Of a stretch of 64,000 nt of DNA, positions 15,001-24,000 are shown one piece after another; position 1 is the first letter of the stretch, and the number at the start of each line of letters is the position of its first letter. The position numbers were made by a program. The stretch comes from Escherichia coli (GTDB lineage: Bacteria > Pseudomonadota > Gammaproteobacteria > Enterobacterales > Enterobacteriaceae), in the NCBI RefSeq assembly GCF_041248615.1, contig NZ_CP158425.1. One strand, 5' to 3'.

Positions 15001-18000
15001 AAAACGCAGACTTGCAAAAAGATTCTCTCAGATTTTTTCGGGATGGATCTGCATGCTCCGTTAACTGACGCCGACATTGAAAATGAACGACGCTATAAAT
15101 CAGCAGTTCGTGCCACAGAAACTCTTGACCGAGAGGAAGTGGCAAAGCGAATGCGAAAACTTGATGTGATGTATCACTATACCGGTGAAATCAAGCCTAA
15201 TACTCCTGTTGCTTTGTACCTCCGTAATCGTGGGATCTCCCGCTTACTGAGTCACTTACCAAAGGATTTAGGCTTTAATAACCGGATCTACTATTGGGAT
15301 AAAGATAAGCAGAAATCGATTATCTATCCGGGAATGATTGCGATCTATCGTGACACCCGAGGTCGGCCTCTGACTATTCATAGAACATACGTAGACAAAA
15401 ATGGTGATAAGGCACCTGTAGAAAATCCAAAGCTGATGATGAAGCCTCCTGCCGATATGACAGGTGGCTCAATTCAGTTGTTTGACCCTCACTATGATTC
15501 AGGTAGTTCGACCTGGACACTGGGAGTGGCTGAAGGGATCGAGAACGCGCTTTCTGTTGTAGAAGCGACTTCAACACCATGCTGGGCAGCCAGCTCCGCA
15601 TGGTGCCTTGAAAACGTTACTGTTCCTGATTTTTTACTGCCTCCGCCGGATGTAAAATCTATAAACTTTTATATCTGGGCGGATAAGGATATTGCTAACT
15701 CACAAGGCACTCGTGCCGGTATTGAAGCTGCTCAGCGACTTCAAAGCCGCATGGTTGAGTTTTTGGCTAAACGATATCCCGCATCAAAGCTGACAATTGA
15801 AGTCTTCGAACCAGCACAAGATATTCCTGATGGGAAAAAGGGTATCGACTGGAACGATGTTCTCCAGTTAACAGGGCAGGATGGATTCCCGATTCACTGG
15901 GCTCCTGAATGTCTTAATCAGCTGTAACAACGATAACTCCCCCGCTTTTTGCGGGGGGGGTTATCTTATCAATATTATATTTTAAAATTGTATTGATAAG
16001 ATAACCGCTTTCCTTCGTGATAATTACCTGCCTTTAAGGTCTTTTCACGGCTGAGATGCTTGCTCAGTTAAATAAATGTGCGGTACTACTGGCTATGGTC
16101 GGTTGTATGACATGGTTATTCCATAAACTATTAAAACCCATAACGGGAGTATTACCGTTATGGTGATGCTCGTCGTTTTACATCGGAGAGCATTTTAATG
16201 AATTTTCAAATTAACGAAGTTTTTAATAAATTTGCTGCTGTTATAAAATCGCGCATCGTCAATGAACCATCGTCATGCTATTTGCTGCATGATAATGAGA
16301 TAGATATAACGATTTTGAAACATAGCATATTAGAAAATGACAGAAACCTGTTGTACGTAGTTCGTCCTTCAGGAACGTGTTTGTTGCGTTGTGACAAATA
16401 TTTCTATCCGAAATATTATCTTCGTTGCCGTGGAGATTATAAGTCATTCATATATGTCCATCTTGATCTACATAGTGGTGAAGCTAAAGAAATCACATGG
16501 GAGCAAGCAGACGATATGCTGTCTAGTCCAGGAAAACCCCCATTAAAAGGGAATCTTGGACGATTTGAGTATATAAAAGTTGTGGTTGAGGACCTTCGTA
16601 TTCGAGGTTACGCTGATTATCTTCCTGCGTATAATCTTGATGACCTTCGCCGTTTTGCCTTACAGGACGACCGCCCATCCCTTGTCAGATACATTGGCAA
16701 TGTCATGGCAACGGTCTGATTGATTGCTAATTGATTTACATATTTTCCCTGATGGCCAACCTGCATCAGGGAGGCCTCAATAACGAATGGAGGCTGTATG
16801 AAGTTAGCTACGGACCTGGTAAAAGCTATTTTGATTAGAAATGGCGTTGAACCAGTAAATATAAGCGAATCATCTAAGTTATCTTTGAAACAACCACTGA
16901 CAGAACTTAAATTCAGTTTATATTTGCGAACTGAGCATTTATCTCACTTCCTACCCGGTTATGTTTATTCTATAAAAGAATGTCCACTGTCATATGACAT
17001 CGGGATCGAAATTCAGAAAATCTTCGAAAGTTTACATTTGTTAAACGAAGAATTTGAATCCCTCGGTTTTGTTTCTGTATGGATAGAAATGCATCAAAGC
17101 ATTTTTGAACAAAGTCGGTTTAAGAAAAGTAACTTTACTTTTCGGGAGGAAGAGGTCGAGCTTGCTAAAGGGCTTGTTTGTTCTCACAATTCACAAATAA
17201 GTAATGCGGCTTATTTCTGGCTTCAGCACTTTGAGGAGTTTATGATTTATGTTCGTAATAAGCTTATCGACCTCTTTCGAGAGGCCTATGACCTGATCCT
17301 TGGAATGCAGCAAGTATTTTTCATTCGGGAAAAGGAAGAGCTGTTGAAAACTATAAGTTATGGCGATGAGCTGTATGAGGTGAAATTCATGGCGGCTGAG
17401 CTTTACTCTATCGAACAGAACTTAAAGTGTTCTGAATCGATAAGTACAAAATCTCAAGCTTCGGCATATATTAACCGCATCCGTGAGTTTGTGCGTTCGG
17501 GGTGGAGGCAGGGCTATATAGTCTGCCATCATAAGCGAAGTAATCAAATTTCATCATTGTCATTACCGATGTACTTGAAAGATACGTCAGGCCGAAGTGC
17601 TCGAAAGCGAGTAAAACGTCTTATATCTTCTACAGTTTGTGGTAGAAATAAAGATTTAGGTCTTACAGATTTTTAATTAAATTATACCCATGTGGGGATC
17701 ACACCCCATATGGGAGTGATCCCTTTTTTTATTGAGAGAGGATCACATGAAAATTATCGAAAAAATCATTAATGCCTTTTTGGTTGTTCAACATAAAAAA
17801 ATACAGGTTAAAAACATTACATTTTTAGACAATGGGCAGGGCATGTTCTCTGGTATGTCTTTTGATGCTGATGTTTCACTGGAGTTTATGTATGAATCAG
17901 CAAAAGCATATAGTTCTTGTTTCTTTGATATTCCCTTTCCAGGTTTTGAAGATGCAAATCTGGAGGAAATTACGAAATTTCAATTAGATGCTTTGAAGCA

Positions 18001-21000: not shown

Positions 21001-24000
21001 AATGCTGTTGATTTATATGTCGATAGTATCTCTGAGAATGAAATAGAAGCTTTAAACAGAGAATCTTTAAAATCGCGACTCTGTTACTTTCTTGAGGTGT
21101 TTGACGCAGTCTCTGGTCAGTACCTTGAAATTTCAGGAAAACACTTTGCAACTAGTCGTTTTGAATATGATGATGTTTGTAGTGAAGTTCTTAGCATGTC
21201 TAATGATGTTTCTCAGTCGAAAGGTTATGACCGGGATGAATATAACAGACTGATGCAGGTTGATGGTCAGGTTATGATTGCCCGTTTTGCTTTGCAACAG
21301 TTCTGGGATACTCATTTTATTGGACTAATAACATTTGTATCTGAGTCTATAACATCGAGCCTCTATAAAGCTTATGAAACTTTTAGTGATATTAGTTTGG
21401 CTTGCTATAAACTGAGTGAATATTCTTATTCACGCTCTATCAACAGTGAATTGACCCTTAATATTTCACTTAAAGAAAATGACTTCTGTGAGGACCTATC
21501 TGATTGCTATATGGAAGATGAGGCTTTACCTTCTGGTAGGGTAATTTCTCGACGCAACAATGACTCCATAATAAGTATTTATGAGAGCTATGCTGCGGCT
21601 TCTTATATTCCGATGATTGCATCTTTGGAAGTCGTTGATGAATACGGCGAAGTGGTTACTGACCTCTGCCATACCGTTTATGTTTCAGAGTTAACCGGTG
21701 GGCGGATTAAAATCCACGACCGTAATGACTTAGTATCTGAAGTTTTCGATAACCTAAGAAATTTAAATCTTGCAGTTGGAGATTCAGTTTCACAAGCTGC
21801 TTGATTCTTTCCCTGATTTTGATTTTTTCTCACATACTCTTATGGCACGGTTTCCGTGCCTTTTTTTGCCTCGCTTACAAGCGTCTACTCCTCTTCTACC
21901 TATCCCACCTTACATCACCACTTAAAATCTATCTTTCTAATTCCATTATCCTTTTCGTAGCCTCTAATGCTCTGGTATGAACATACTCTTTAAACTCAAA
22001 AAAGTGCTATTAACGAAAAAAAATCCCTAAAGAGATTTGTATACTGTTCTCAACCAAGGAGAGCTCATGAATGAACTAAAATCCAAAAACGAGAACAGTA
22101 CCAAAAGCAACTTTCCCCCGGTTGATAATCAGTTTTGCTTTTACCATGTTGATTTCAGCATAGAACGACTACTTTCTACGGCCGAGGATCTCCAGCTTGA
22201 GTACATCTTCCAGAAACCTGGAAGTGAAGTAAGAAAGGATTTGGTTGAGCGATTTGAACGTGGAGAGCGCTTTGTTACAGCTTCACACTGTGACAATTTC
22301 TGTGAAATCCTTGGTTGTCAAGGCCATCAGGAAAATGCATAAACCCATAAACCTACATTTCCACTTTTAAGGATGTTCACTAAAGAATGATTGGAGAAAG
22401 TATTTTTGACTGGGTAATTTACGGAATATCCATTTTGATATTTGCCTCAGCACTAATTGAAGGAAAGACAACTCGCTACCCAGCACTTTTTTTCTATGGG
22501 AGTTTAATTTTAATGTTAATCCTGATAGTTGCTGGAGGCCTTAACTGGTGGTTCTACAGGTCAAAATATGGCGCAGTAATCGTTATCTTCACAGTGGTTT
22601 CTTTACTGATGACTCGATTCCGCCTGGTCATATATAAATTAAGATTAAGAAAGTTAGTTTCAGAGATCAGATTTCGTATAAAAACGGGTTTTCGTATAAT
22701 TCTTGTTTTGTCGGATAATGAGGATGAGCGTAATGTTCTGCTGTCTATGCTTAGCAACGTATTGCCAGAGCAAACGCTTATTCACACGCGTGATGCTCTC
22801 GGACCTCATTCAGGGCCTATCCTAAAAGCTCTTGAGCTACATCATCAACAGGGAACAGGTTACATACTCGTCTGTGAACAACAAATCTCAGCGCGTACGT
22901 GGTTGAGTATCGTAGAAAATGGGAAACCTGATACATCTATAGCTGTTAATTTTCATTCGATCCCAGAAATGGAGTGATTTTTCAATGAGTAGAACCGTTT
23001 CACAAAGTGTCACAGAAGATTGTCTTTTTGATACCCGCACACAAGTCAGATTACAACTAAGTCGAAGCGTTCATAAAACGCTGGCATCTGCTAAAGAAAT
23101 TTTACAGGGAAGGGGGGTTGATTCGGTCTCTATTGAAGATCTTGTGCGAGCCTGTCTTGAAGAGAACCAGCCAATTGATCTCGCCTCACTTTACCTTGAA
23201 AATCTCTTAAAACAGAAAGGTACCAGCATTTGCGATTTTTAGTGTTTTCAAACCTATTAGATAAAATGCCGGTTGTGTTTATATAACATCAATAATTTCA
23301 TGCAACAGGTAAAACATGAGTACTCAAAAGCAACTTTCCAGAACAACCGGCACTGAACGTATGTTTAAGGAAGAGCTGGCGTTATCCTTAATTTGTTGGG
23401 TTTTCACCAGTCCATTTACCAACTGGACCGATAAAGTCTTCAGTGGTATTGAAGTTCCGTCTGAAGGACCGTCAACATTACTGGGTGAGGCTGAAAAATT
23501 CTTTCGTTTTGTCGTTAATGAAGAAGGCTACGACGCAGGAAGGGCTGCTCTTGGTCTTGACCTATGTTGTTTTTCACTTCCGTCGTGTTTGTTCCCGGAC
23601 GCTGCCCTGTCTGAGGAAGAGGTTATGAGTAAGTTAACCGGAGAAGTTATCCATGGGATTCTTCTTTCCTTACCTGAATTTATTGATATGCCAGAAGTGC
23701 TCGCTTACCAGGTCAGGGATGAAATTCTTGCTTTTAACACTCGCTGTGGAGACGGGATCTTTCATGGTTGGAACACGGCTTCAGAATTGTGGAAGTTTGA
23801 AATCTTTCCCCGCACCACCATCATGATGCAGCATACTTCGGCAATACATTAAAATTAGGCGGGGCAGAATGCATAAAAAACTTTTTCTTCTCGAATGGAA
23901 ACCCTGTCAGAGCCGCGTATGGGCCGGTTGGATGGCCCTGTGGTTGACTATCAGTTTTCTGATGTTATCTGCCTTGCTTATGACAGATCATCTCCTGAAC

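What the first reader, a model, noticed from the sequence alone, without database searches (positions are those of the whole stretch)
16798..21804. Tandem array of five divergent ~300-aa paralogs, each with its own upstream hairpin and RBS
Five consecutive plus-strand genes of 292-320 aa. Members 4 and 5 are clearly homologous along their whole length, and their ~60-bp leaders (taaccca…hairpin…gaggtagtgta-ATG) are duplicated too. Members 1-3 share with them an N-terminal amphipathic motif. The products have no recognisable catalytic motif. The unit is hairpin-RBS-gene. A locally expanded, rapidly diverging family on a conjugative plasmid is the pattern expected for anti-restriction/anti-defence genes or for specificity-diversified immunity or effector proteins. 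The 173-aa gene at 16198 and others upstream may be more distant relatives.
Basis: seen in the sequence. Interest (0 to 1): 0.65.

Follow-up and report, generated by a model that had tools for sequence, protein, structure and literature searches.

The report
IncHI plasmid five-paralog array, gated leaders
Five ancient, divergent copies of an uncharacterised ~300-aa protein sit at the end of a long operon that IncHI resistance plasmids switch on together with their conjugation genes, and each gene (plus at least six, probably seven, unrelated genes upstream) is preceded by a conserved, previously undescribed two-hairpin RNA leader that hides its ribosome-binding site.

Summary
Window 16798-21804 (IncHI2 backbone, 100% identical to p14408_M1) holds five + strand genes (292, 311, 306, 312, 318 aa). 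BLASTP links only m4~m5 and weakly m2~m3. Profile-profile comparison with clean controls, and two AlphaFold models with the same secondary-structure order, show that all five share one orphan fold with no Pfam, NCBIfam, PHROG, PADLOC or PDB relative. g0 and the other upstream unknowns are not relatives.

The array is ancient and fixed: five copies in IncHI1/HI1B/HI2 and intact in ~99% of ~1,400 plasmids, with 2-4 copies only in deep lineages. It evolves faster than its neighbours but under purifying selection (dN/dS 0.15-0.41).

The hairpin-RBS unit is not specific to the paralogs. The same two-hairpin leader precedes at least 11 cistrons from 8.1 to 20.9 kb, with strong covariation and + strand specificity. 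It occludes the SD, is not thermolabile, and carries a co-evolving SD mimic. Rfam has no match.

Published R27 microarrays place the genes (inferred R0198-R0202) among the most strongly HtdA-repressed on the plasmid: 38-107-fold, at 25 C only. So they belong to the conjugation regulon, not to a leading-region early set. Protein function remains unknown, and an anti-defence role is neither supported nor excluded.

The parts
16798..17676 (+). m1, 292 aa, near-neutral paralog (inferred R27 R0202)
   Evidence: ORF. hhalign to m2+m3: probability 88.8%. AF2 pLDDT 83.4. An m1-type gene is present in every lineage, including the two-copy one.
17747..18682 (+). m2, 311 aa (start corrected from 17732; inferred R0201)
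   Evidence: The leader model ends on ATG 17747.
18751..19671 (+). m3, 306 aa (inferred R0200)
   Evidence: m2~m3 probability 92%, E 6e-7.
19738..20676 (+). m4, 312 aa, acidic (pI 4.8; inferred R0199). Its N-terminal two-thirds (about 19600-20400) is a recombinant, allelic patch.
20848..21804 (+). m5, 318 aa, strongly acidic (net -30; start corrected from 20842). Split by IS2 in R27 (inferred R0198 and R0194).
16743..16797 (+). m1 leader: hairpin 1 plus an SD-occluding hairpin 2
   Evidence: z -2.9. Not recovered by either covariance model in the window, but its L003 orthologue scores E 0.004 with R2.
17684..17746 (+). m2 leader (best copy of the motif; X = GGGGAUCAC, anti-SD arm = GUGAUCCC, SD arm = GAGGAUCAC)
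   Evidence: z -6.5.
18690..18750 (+). m3 leader
   Evidence: z -6.1.
19674..19737 (+). m4 leader
   Evidence: z -4.5.
20786..20847 (+). m5 leader, the last 62 nt of a 171-nt spacer
   Evidence: E 2e-6; z -5.7.
16134..16197 (+). g0 leader: same motif in front of a gene that is not a family member
   Evidence: z -5.4. Protein unrelated.
16198..16719 (+). g0, 173 aa, first gene of the distal block (inferred R0203). Not a paralog.
11005..11064 (+). Same leader motif before the DUF3150 gene
   Evidence: E 4.6e-8, E 2.3e-14.
12210..12269 (+). Same leader motif before the CobT-like VWA gene
   Evidence: (E 9e-12).
14295..14359 (+). Same leader motif before the 73-aa gene
   Evidence: E 0.021.
8108..8164 (+). 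Two-hairpin leader before the 125-aa gene, recognised by folding only
   Evidence: z -4.0.
8543..8602 (+). Variant leader (one long hairpin) before the 325-aa gene
   Evidence: E 0.16.
15937..15959 (+). Terminator-like hairpin after the toprim gene. It coincides with a roughly 3-fold step down in R27 array signal between R0204 and R0203.
   Evidence: PMC7366339 Table S4.
21844..21867 (+). Canonical intrinsic terminator (GGCACGG-TTT-CCGTGCC followed by T7) that ends the unit after m5

Best explanation
SHOWN. The five genes are ancient tandem paralogs of one orphan, non-enzymatic alpha/beta protein family found only on IncHI-type plasmids. There are three subgroups: m1; m2 and m3; and the acidic m4 and m5. 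They form the distal block (g0, m1-m5) of a co-directional cluster of about 14.6 kb (window about 7.2-21.9 kb). The cluster begins downstream of trhI, encodes CobS-like AAA+, DUF3150, CobT-like VWA and primase-like toprim proteins, and ends at a strong terminator after m5.

SHOWN BY OTHERS, with the gene mapping inferred here. In R27 the whole cluster is silent at 37 C, induced at 25 C, and derepressed 19-116-fold in an htdA mutant. It therefore belongs to the TrhR/TrhY-HtdA conjugation regulon and is made in transfer-competent donors.

SHOWN. At least 11 of the cistrons (12 if the weak AAA leader is counted), including all five paralogs, are preceded by one conserved leader of about 62 nt, which ends at or within about 10 nt of the start codon. 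Hairpin 1 is G+C-clamped. Hairpin 2 has the Shine-Dalgarno sequence as its 3' arm. Both helices covary, the element is specific to the + strand, and the SD is predicted to stay paired from 20 to 50 C.

INFERRED. The leader is a default-off translational gate. The top and loop of hairpin 1 is an SD mimic that co-evolves with the anti-SD arm. When hairpin 1 is opened, by a ribosome terminating 1-10 nt upstream or by a trans-acting factor, the mimic can capture the anti-SD arm and free the real SD. This would couple and balance translation along the long mRNA.

INFERRED, weakest step. The proteins have no conserved polar residues, a conserved split into neutral and acidic types, and are dispensable for laboratory conjugation. 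They most likely act as binding or adaptor proteins in a conjugation-linked accessory process, such as establishment in or protection against particular recipients, possibly as neutral/acidic hetero-complexes. They are unlikely to be enzymes or essential transfer components.
For: Paralogy:
- BLASTP and hhalign with controls.
- Two AF2 models with the same topology.

Orphan status:
- No hit in Pfam, NCBIfam, PHROGs or PADLOC, or in PDB sequences.
- 71 hits among 1.84 billion representatives; every locus examined was an IncHI-type backbone.

Age and fixation:
- Same order in IncHI1, IncHI1B, IncHI2, L011, L013, L016 and L017.
- Intact in about 99% of about 1,400 plasmids.
- dN/dS 0.15-0.41.

Regulon membership (PMC7366339, Table 1 and Table S4):
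- The R-number mapping rests on the R27 record, counting from trhN = R0005 and from the IS2 insertion.

Leader:
- z-scores.
- Covariation: 96.3% of cells paired, 16 of 20 pairs compensatory, score 0.636 against 0.176 in shuffles (0 of 500) and 0.07-0.11 in slid controls.
- 22 G.U pairs against 4 A.C.
- Census restricted to the cluster.
- SD mimic: -9.4 kcal/mol within a leader against -5.6 between gene families, 0 of 5000 permutations.
- No thermal opening of the SD.

Dispensability:
- IS2 splits m5 in conjugation-proficient R27.
- The array has decayed in a Photorhabdus replicon.

Charge dichotomy.
Against: - No experiment addresses the proteins. Binding/adaptor and establishment/anti-defence roles are inferred from negative evidence.
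- The Infernal alignment is fitted to the structure, so the covariation counts lean towards it.
- Orthologous leaders are not independent, so the permutation result overstates significance.
- For m1, m5 and g0, hairpin 1 lies 26, 111 and about 205 nt from the upstream stop codon, so triggering by a terminating ribosome cannot be universal.
- The SD-mimic complementarity could be a by-product of both hairpins being built from GGGA/UCCC-type arms. The between-family control argues against this but does not exclude it.
- The R27 microarray measures RNA, not translation.
- The ORF-number mapping was inferred by synteny and counting, not read from the original GenBank record.
- Co-transcription of g0-m5 with the upstream block was not demonstrated.
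Confidence: 0.55

Rival explanations
1. The five proteins are anti-restriction or anti-defence factors (or diversified immunity or effector proteins), each aimed at a different host system and expressed early after entry into a recipient.
For: - Conjugative plasmid and a locally expanded family. m1-m4 are the fastest-diverging genes of the segment.
- m5 and m4 are conserved acidic proteins, loosely like DNA mimics.
- m4 shows allelic replacement within a 97-100% identical backbone.
- Dispensable for laboratory mating.
- No conserved catalytic residues.
Against: - No hit to any defence or anti-defence related model.
- dN/dS is well below 1, and the m4 patch has high dS, so it arose by recombination.
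- No copy-number variation among about 1,400 plasmids.
- The genes lie next to Tra2 and are regulated with the donor tra regulon, not as a leading-region set driven by an ssDNA promoter.
- No toxin or effector partner lies nearby.
- Delivery of donor-made protein to the recipient remains possible, so anti-defence as such is not excluded.
Confidence: 0.15
2. The leaders are mRNA processing and stability elements, not translational switches. On this view an AU-rich RNase E site is followed by hairpin 1, which acts as a 5' stabiliser for the downstream segment or as a block to 3' exonucleases for the upstream one, and SD pairing is incidental damping.
For: - AU-rich stretches precede hairpin 1.
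- Hairpins repeat at every junction of a very long mRNA.
- The R27 authors report processing and multiple transcripts in the neighbouring AN operon (PMC7366339).
- Array signals are flat across the paralogs despite the length of the mRNA.
Against: - It does not explain why hairpin 2 always contains the SD and ends at or within about 10 nt of the start codon.
- It does not explain why helix 2 covaries as strongly as helix 1.
- It does not explain why the hairpin 1 loop co-evolves with the anti-SD arm.
- The two roles are not mutually exclusive.
Confidence: 0.3
3. The paralogs are substrates, adaptors or specificity subunits of the CobS-like AAA+ / CobT-like VWA machine encoded upstream in the same cluster. 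Each paralog would direct it to a different client.
For: - Same co-regulated cluster and a shared leader motif.
- MoxR/VWA-type systems typically work with dedicated partner proteins (general knowledge).
- The synteny toprim - g0 - array is conserved in every lineage.
Against: - The AAA+/DUF3150/VWA/toprim block is retained where the array is reduced to two genes or has decayed, so the block does not need five partners.
- A terminator-like site and a 270-nt spacer separate the two blocks.
- There is no interaction evidence.
Confidence: 0.2
4. The leaders are RNA thermometers that contribute to the well-known temperature sensitivity of IncHI transfer.
For: SD-occluding hairpins sit in a cluster that is expressed only at 25 C.
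Against: - Predicted SD pairing does not change between 20 and 50 C.
- Hairpin 2 alone is -7.6 to -13.8 kcal/mol, far more stable than known thermometers.
- The polarity is wrong: a thermometer opens at high temperature, whereas these genes are transcribed at low temperature.
- No Rfam thermometer family matches.
Confidence: 0.04
5. The palindromes act at the DNA level. They would be hairpins on the transferred single strand (priming or ssi-like signals for the adjacent primase-like protein), or operators for a dimeric DNA-binding protein.
For: - G+C-rich inverted repeats lie next to a primase-like gene on a conjugative plasmid.
- The CCC/GGG clamps are conserved in sequence, not only in pairing.
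Against: - G.U (G.T) wobble pairs outnumber A.C by 22 to 4, and the model scores far higher on the + strand.
- The element sits at a near-fixed distance from start codons and includes the SD.
- The middle pairs covary freely, which argues against a sequence-specific double-stranded operator.
- The stems are too short for ssDNA promoters of the Frpo type (general knowledge).
Confidence: 0.06

Closest known systems
erm/cat-type translational attenuation and long-range translational coupling (ermC leader; MS2 coat-replicase coupling)
   Same: The SD of the regulated cistron is locked in a hairpin. An upstream segment can pair alternatively with the anti-SD arm. An upstream ribosome is the plausible trigger. 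Structure, not sequence, is conserved.
   Different: - There is no leader peptide and no evidence of drug-dependent stalling.
- The element is repeated at 11-12 consecutive cistron junctions of one cluster instead of at one gene.
- The competing segment is itself buried in a stable first hairpin.
- In three copies the upstream stop codon is 26 to about 205 nt away.
- It works like these systems (inferred), but it is not a member of any described family (Rfam negative).
REP/BIME-type and other intercistronic stem-loops that set segmental mRNA stability in polycistronic operons
   Same: Repeated G+C-rich palindromes lie between cistrons of a long operon, and steady-state RNA is flat across the distal genes.
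   Different: The element is strictly + strand and restricted to one cluster. It sits at a near-fixed distance from the start codon, includes the SD, and has a second covarying helix. REP elements are genome-wide, occur in both orientations, and are not positioned relative to start codons.
Plasmid anti-restriction / DNA-mimic proteins (ArdA, Ocr, KlcA/ArdB, ArdC)
   Same: Plasmid-borne, non-enzymatic and dispensable for mating in permissive laboratory hosts. m5 and m4 are conserved acidic proteins.
   Different: - No sequence or fold similarity.
- About 300 aa, not about 100-170 aa.
- m1-m3 are not acidic.
- Not in the leading region.
- Expressed with the donor tra regulon.
Aha1 N-terminal domain / BPI-TULIP alpha+beta wrap folds
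The 'cluster of 9 genes, R0204 to R0002' of unknown function on R27 (Gibert et al. 2020, PMC7366339)
   Same: Same transcriptional direction and the same HtdA and temperature regulation. It carries the same leader motif and lies immediately upstream. The array behaves as its lower-expressed continuation.
   Different: That paper did not single out R0198-R0203 (they fall below its expression threshold in wild type), did not note their paralogy, and did not describe the leader element.

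Membership tests
ArdA/Ocr-type DNA-mimic anti-restriction proteins | Sequence or profile membership (Pfam ArdA and related models) | tested here: not met
   No Pfam hit for any of 23 family members. PADLOC, PHROGs and NCBIfam negative. PDB sequence search negative.
ArdA/Ocr-type DNA-mimic anti-restriction proteins | Very high density of surface Asp/Glu mimicking B-DNA | tested here: inconclusive
   m5 type net -17 to -33 (two exceptions, -1 and -3) and m4 type -11 to -15, conserved, but m1-m3 are about neutral. 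The charge density is lower than in ArdA or Ocr. Surface geometry was not analysed.
ArdA/Ocr-type DNA-mimic anti-restriction proteins | Encoded in the leading region and expressed early in the recipient | tested here: not met
   The genes lie downstream of the Tra2 genes trhU, trhN and trhI and are regulated with the donor tra regulon. R27 oriT lies in Tra1 (own knowledge; the paper states only that Tra1 and Tra2 are separate regions).
RNA thermometers (ROSE, fourU and similar) | The SD-occluding helix melts within the physiological temperature range | tested here: not met
   Predicted unpaired probability of the SD is unchanged from 20 to 50 C. Hairpin 2 is -7.6 to -13.8 kcal/mol.
RNA thermometers (ROSE, fourU and similar) | Match to a curated Rfam family | tested here: not met
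   No relevant Rfam hit in window 6000-27000, even at E <= 1.
Translational attenuators / coupling switches (ermC-like logic) | The SD of the regulated gene is sequestered in a conserved helix | tested here: met
   SD paired with probability 0.80-1.00 for m1-m5. In helix 2, 97.9% of cells are paired and 8 of 9 pairs carry compensatory changes.
Translational attenuators / coupling switches (ermC-like logic) | A mutually exclusive alternative helix that frees the SD | tested here: met
   In silico only. The top and loop of hairpin 1 are complementary to the anti-SD arm at -9.4 kcal/mol within a leader against -5.6 between families, 0 of 5000 permutations.
Translational attenuators / coupling switches (ermC-like logic) | An upstream translated ORF whose ribosome can reach the first helix | tested here: inconclusive
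   Hairpin 1 starts 1-10 nt after the upstream stop codon for h125, h325, DUF3150, h73, m2, m3 and m4. The distance is about 20 nt for VWA and 26, 111 and about 205 nt for m1, m5 and g0.
Translational attenuators / coupling switches (ermC-like logic) | Demonstrated change of translation on switching | not testable with these tools
   Needs reporter fusions, toeprinting or structure probing.
REP/BIME-like dispersed palindromes | Dispersed over the replicon, in either orientation, with no fixed relation to start codons | tested here: not met
   In 64 kb, + strand hits occur only at 8.5-20.9 kb and each ends at an ATG. Minus-strand echoes score much lower.
Intrinsic terminators / transcription attenuators | A G+C hairpin followed by a U tract that reduces downstream RNA | tested here: inconclusive
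   Several leaders contain terminator-like alternatives. However, R27 array signals are flat across R0198-R0203, at 2,740-6,669 units. Genuine terminator-like sites lie after toprim (15937-15959) and after m5 (21844-21860).
Polymorphic-toxin immunity gene arrays | An adjacent toxin or effector gene, and small cognate immunity proteins | tested here: not met
   No toxin-like gene in the cluster. The proteins are about 300 aa and the array composition is fixed.
TrhR/TrhY-HtdA conjugation regulon of IncHI plasmids | Induced at 25 C, silent at 37 C, and derepressed in an htdA mutant | tested here: met
   From published data, not my own experiment. R0198-R0203 rise 38-116-fold in htdA at 25 C and stay below 65 units at 37 C (PMC7366339 Table S4). 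The ORF mapping was inferred from the R27 record.
TrhR/TrhY-HtdA conjugation regulon of IncHI plasmids | Required for conjugative transfer | tested here: not met
   m5 is interrupted by IS2 in conjugation-proficient R27. The array has decayed in the Photorhabdus replicon L004. m1-m4 were not tested.

The most novel reading that the evidence does not exclude
IncHI plasmids carry a previously undescribed cis-regulatory RNA, present in 11-12 copies. It is a self-contained switch made of an SD mimic, an anti-SD arm and the SD, and it gates translation of every cistron of a conjugation-coupled operon. At the end of that operon sits an orphan-fold family of neutral and acidic paralogs that forms a new class of donor-made, conjugation-linked establishment or anti-defence factors. 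If the AFDB structural neighbours (Dickeya, Pectobacterium, Photorhabdus, Pasteurellaceae, 'NgrC') prove to be true homologues, the family may extend to other MOBH-type elements.
Probability: 0.22. Interest if true: 0.78.

Novelty: new variant of a known kind. Interest (0 to 1): 0.58.

Why it matters
IncHI1 and IncHI2 plasmids spread multidrug resistance in typhoid Salmonella, and mcr-1, carbapenemase and ESBL genes in Enterobacterales. This window itself carries mcr-1. Their thermosensitive transfer is a long-studied puzzle, yet the genes most strongly controlled by the HtdA/TrhRY circuit are completely uncharacterised.

This work gives those genes a structure: one orphan family of five paralogs, fixed in about 1,400 sequenced plasmids. 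It also identifies a conserved, covarying RNA leader that should make their translation conditional. Both are directly testable with deletions, reporter fusions and structure probing. They could reveal a post-transcriptional layer of conjugation control and a new accessory function in plasmid establishment. The leader is also a candidate new Rfam family.

Tried and rejected
- BLASTP all-against-all detects only m4~m5 and weakly m2~m3. Profiles were needed.
- The MAFFT alignment of the 20 leaders was out of register, and RNAalifold found almost nothing. A covariance-model alignment solved this.
- NCBIfam, PHROGs, PADLOC, Pfam and PDB sequence searches gave nothing for the paralogs.
- A literature search for 'NgrC', the name of one AFDB neighbour, returned only unrelated acronyms. 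A search for the R27 ORF numbers found no other paper.
- The genome-contig scan failed with the 37-sequence alignment because no stretch was conserved enough. With the m4+m5 alignment it found no relatives in 100,044 species representatives.
- A second word-indexed search with the 37-sequence profile added nothing beyond the family.
- The original R27 GenBank record AF250878 is not in the collections, so the R-numbers were mapped by synteny and counting.
- Rejected: g0, h290, h125, h325, h73, h91 and h148 as distant relatives.
- Rejected: positive selection as the cause of the m4 patch.
- Rejected: the RNA-thermometer model.
- Rejected: efficient termination at the leaders.
- Considered and left open: the terminator-like alternative helices in the m2, m4 and DUF3150 leaders. 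They are not consistent between paralogs.

Full report
WHAT THE WINDOW IS

Window 16000-22000 is 100% identical to E. coli plasmid p14408_M1 (NZ_LT599829.1; IncHI2A, MOBH, MPF_F), and 1,112 of the 1,188 matching PLSDB records are at least 99% identical. The region lies downstream of the Tra2 genes trhU, trhN and trhI. It is followed by a Tus-like gene, a tyrosine recombinase, hha and, further on, ISApl1-mcr-1. All five genes are annotated 'hypothetical protein'.

THE OBSERVATION

The five + strand ORFs exist. PGAP, the orthologues and the leader model agree that m2 starts at ATG 17747 and m5 at ATG 20848.

BLASTP gives m4~m5 at 27% identity over 309 aa (E 5e-38) and m2~m3 at E 7e-6, and nothing else. 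I built ortholog alignments from five lineages and ran hhalign:
- m4~m5: probability 99.9%.
- m2~m3: 92%.
- m1~(m2+m3): 88.8%, E 2.5e-6, 229 collinear columns starting at residue 1.
- (m1+m2+m3)~(m4+m5): 91.3%, E 9.4e-7, 201 collinear columns.

Twenty-four comparisons with unrelated neighbour families and five with reversed alignments gave E >= 0.03 and short stretches. AlphaFold2 models of m5 (pLDDT 73.6, pTM 0.66) and m1 (pLDDT 83.4, pTM 0.78) show the same succession of elements: N-terminal helix, beta-hairpin, helices, beta-hairpin, two helices, a central helix of about 47-51 residues, then a C-terminal beta-rich half.

So all five are paralogs, in three subgroups. g0 and the other unknowns of the cluster (h290, h125, h325, h73), as well as h91 and h148 downstream, are not relatives.

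AN ORPHAN FAMILY

- Pfam, NCBIfam, PHROGs, PADLOC and PDB sequence searches are negative.
- An exhaustive HMMER search of 1.84 billion representatives with the five-family profile finds 71 proteins, about 25 of them full length. Every one whose locus I examined lies in an IncHI-type backbone.
- No relative was found in 100,044 species-representative genomes.
- Across 37 diverse members no column is invariant, and only one Leu and one Tyr are at least 90% conserved. This argues against an enzyme.
- Foldseek against AFDB50 finds, beyond the orthologues, uncharacterised proteins of about 300 aa (10-17% identity, TM about 0.6) from Dickeya, Brenneria, Pectobacterium, Serratia, Photorhabdus and Pasteurellaceae. 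It also finds one protein named 'NgrC' and a 708-aa DUF1738 protein. I could not retrieve these sequences to examine their context.

EVOLUTION

The same five genes, in the same order and of the same sizes, occur in IncHI1 (pHCM1, R27), IncHI1B (pPSV) and IncHI2. By tblastn, m1, m3 and m5 are present in 1,399, 1,399 and 1,406 plasmid records, almost all full length.

Deeper lineages in the same slot (toprim - g0-like - array - ... - Ter) carry:
- m1 + m5 types (L013 type);
- m1, m2, m3, m5 (L011);
- m1, m3, m4, m5 (L017);
- m1, m2, m3 and two m5-like genes (L016).

The order is always collinear. In a Photorhabdus replicon g0, m1, m2 and most of m3 are deleted, and m4 and m5 are broken.

m1-m4 are the most diverged genes of the segment, at 47-53% identity against 59-80% for the neighbours other than the small h91 at 52%. 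But dN/dS is 0.15-0.41. The one hot spot is the N-terminal two-thirds of m4, at 79-93% nucleotide identity within a backbone where flanking 200-nt bins are at least 97% identical. It has dS 0.46 and dN/dS 0.20, so it is an imported allele.

The m5 type is conserved acidic (net -17 to -33, with two exceptions), the m4 type mostly acidic, and m1-m3 about neutral.

THE LEADERS

Every leader, in every lineage, folds into a G+C-clamped hairpin 1 and a hairpin 2 whose 3' arm is the SD and which ends at or within about 10 nt of the start codon. The five leaders align to one consensus.
- Folding z-scores are -2.9 to -6.5. Ten other leaders in the window average -0.2.
- A covariance model seeded on the four m2 leaders also found the leaders of the DUF3150, VWA, 73-aa and g0 genes.
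- Folding of all spacers shows the motif before h125, h325 (a variant), AAA (weak), DUF3150, VWA, h73, g0 and m1-m5. It is absent from the toprim leader and from everything after m5.
- On the Infernal alignment of 23 confident hits, 96.3% of cells are paired and 16 of 20 pairs carry compensatory double changes. The covariation score is 0.636 against 0.176 +/- 0.018 in shuffles (0 of 500) and 0.07-0.11 for slid partners. The caveat is that the alignment is fitted to the structure.
- G.U pairs outnumber A.C by 22 to 4.
- The broader model hits the + strand only between 8.5 and 20.9 kb of the 64-kb window, always ending at an ATG, with much weaker minus-strand echoes.
- It finds the element in all other lineages, including R27.
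- Rfam has no match.

HOW THE LEADER MAY WORK

The SD is predicted to be paired with probability 0.80-1.00 for m1-m5. It stays paired from 20 to 50 C, and hairpin 2 alone is -7.6 to -13.8 kcal/mol. This is therefore not a thermometer, and translation should need active opening.

Within each leader, the top of the 5' arm plus the loop of hairpin 1 resembles the SD arm and is complementary to the anti-SD arm. In m2 these are GGGGAUCAC, GUGAUCCC and GAGGAUCAC, and all three positions change together to ...UUAC / GUAAU... / ...UUAC in IncHI1. Duplex energies are -9.4 kcal/mol within a leader against -5.6 between leaders of different genes, with 0 of 5,000 permutations reaching the observed value.

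For seven junctions hairpin 1 starts 1-10 nt after the upstream stop codon, so a terminating ribosome could open it. For VWA the distance is about 20 nt, and for m1, m5 and g0 it is 26, 111 and about 205 nt.

I therefore infer a default-off gate with a cis SD mimic. A role in mRNA processing or stability is the main rival, and the two are compatible.

EXPRESSION

Gibert et al. 2020 (PMC7366339) profiled all R27 ORFs. [quoted passage not shown]

The R27 record shows the same gene order on the complement strand, with IS2 inserted in m5. I counted from trhN on one side. On the other side I used the two constitutively expressed, IS-like probes R0195 and R0197. This gives:

| R27 ORF | Gene here |
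|---|---|
| R0204 | toprim |
| R0203 | g0 |
| R0202 | m1 |
| R0201 | m2 |
| R0200 | m3 |
| R0199 | m4 |
| R0198 | m5, N-terminal part |
| R0194 | m5, C-terminal part |

The expression values (Table S4) are:
- Wild type at 25 C: R0198-R0203 read 27-129 units, against 9-61 at 37 C.
- htdA mutant at 25 C: 2,740-6,669 units, which is 38-116-fold. Bona fide tra genes rise 5-27-fold and the upstream block 19-53-fold.
- At 37 C in either background: no more than 64 units.
- The signal falls about 3-fold between toprim and g0, where a terminator-like hairpin lies (15937-15959).
- It is flat across the paralogs, so the leaders are not efficient terminators.
- It collapses across IS2, from 3,955 to 116.

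This is consistent with transcription entering from upstream. A canonical terminator follows m5 at 21844-21860.

WHAT IT PROBABLY IS

The upstream genes are a CobS-like AAA+ protein, DUF3150, a CobT-like VWA protein and a primase-like toprim protein, behind a UvrD-like helicase, TrhI. The array is the tail of this donor-expressed, conjugation-coupled cluster. It is not essential for laboratory mating, since m5 is disrupted in R27.

The combination of features favours accessory binding or adaptor proteins acting in a conjugation-linked process whose importance depends on the recipient or host. Those features are a non-enzymatic orphan fold, a conserved neutral/acidic dichotomy, long-term retention of distinct paralogs under purifying selection, faster divergence than the backbone, allelic exchange at m4, and loss in an atypical host.

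An anti-defence or establishment role, possibly by delivery of donor-made protein, fits but has no positive evidence. A role as partners of the AAA+/VWA machine is the main alternative.

VERDICT

- The anti-defence/arms-race interpretation is only partly supported.
- The most novel concrete result is the 11-12-copy, covarying, SD-occluding leader with a co-evolving SD mimic.
- A further result is the recognition that the genes most strongly repressed by HtdA on IncHI plasmids are one orphan family of five paralogs.

Noticed in passing
window 15959-16006: An AT-rich, near-perfect 23-nt inverted repeat (GGTTATCTTATCAATATTATATT / AAAATTGTATTGATAAGATAACC, 2 nt apart) lies immediately after the terminator-like hairpin that follows the toprim gene, inside the 270-nt toprim-g0 spacer. 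It could be an operator or internal promoter region for the g0-m5 block.
   Followed up: partly
window 20677-20785 (box at about 20698-20711): The m4-m5 spacer is about 100 nt longer than the other spacers in IncHI1, IncHI1B and IncHI2 (171-177 nt). It contains a box, AAAAAGTAACTTTG, conserved between these lineages, followed by a long imperfect hairpin. It is shorter and lacks the box in L016 and L017. Possibly an internal promoter, a regulator site or a small RNA.
   Followed up: partly
L015 (R27, NC_002305) 6238-8530, i.e. record 166237-168529: In the reference IncHI1 plasmid R27, m5 is split by an IS2 insertion into a 183-aa N-terminal ORF and a 135-aa C-terminal ORF. Microarray signal drops from 3,955 to 116 units across the insertion in the htdA mutant.
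   Followed up: yes
window 19600-20400 versus L005/L006: The N-terminal two-thirds of m4 is a mosaic patch: 79-93% nucleotide identity, 86% aa identity for the whole gene, dS 0.46. The rest of these IncHI2 backbones encode 97-100% identical proteins. This is allelic replacement by recombination at a single paralog.
   Followed up: yes
L004 (Photorhabdus tasmaniensis contig JASNMP010000008.1) 9130-11741: An IncHI-like backbone in Photorhabdus retains the AAA+/DUF3150/VWA/toprim block. It has lost g0, m1, m2 and most of m3, and carries m4 and m5 interrupted by stop codons. The leader motif is still detectable in front of the remnants.
   Followed up: partly
window 14582-14694: The toprim gene is the one cistron inside the cluster without the two-hairpin motif. 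Its 113-nt leader instead forms a single long hairpin (about -35 kcal/mol) well upstream of the SD.
   Followed up: no
window 12270-14288 (VWA protein, residues about 250-400): The CobT-like VWA protein carries a long, highly acidic, low-complexity insert rich in E, D, S and T (for example ...TETDTDTDTESEDKSLESTDSREDDSEDDSEGQ...). This is the most variable part of that protein between lineages (63% overall identity).
   Followed up: no
AFDB50 hits of model m332185719498: Structural neighbours at TM about 0.6 but 10-17% identity are uncharacterised proteins of about 300 aa from Dickeya, Brenneria, Pectobacterium, Serratia, Photorhabdus, Glaesserella and Rodentibacter. There is also a protein named 'NgrC' (Modicisalibacter) and a 708-aa DUF1738 (ArdC-N-like) protein. 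These genera are typical hosts of MOBH-type ICEs. Their sequences could not be fetched to test the context.
   Followed up: no
window about 30800-34900: A composite ISApl1-mcr-1-pap2-ISApl1 transposon (Tn6330-like) lies about 9 kb downstream of the array, followed by ter (tellurite resistance) genes. This is known biology, noted only for context.
   Followed up: no
window 8543-8602: The leader of the 325-aa gene is a variant of the motif. The two hairpins are merged into one 15-bp helix (GGGGAGAAAUCCC / GGGAUUUCUCCUU), and the SD (GGAG) lies just 3' of it. The same variant occurs in L011.
   Followed up: partly
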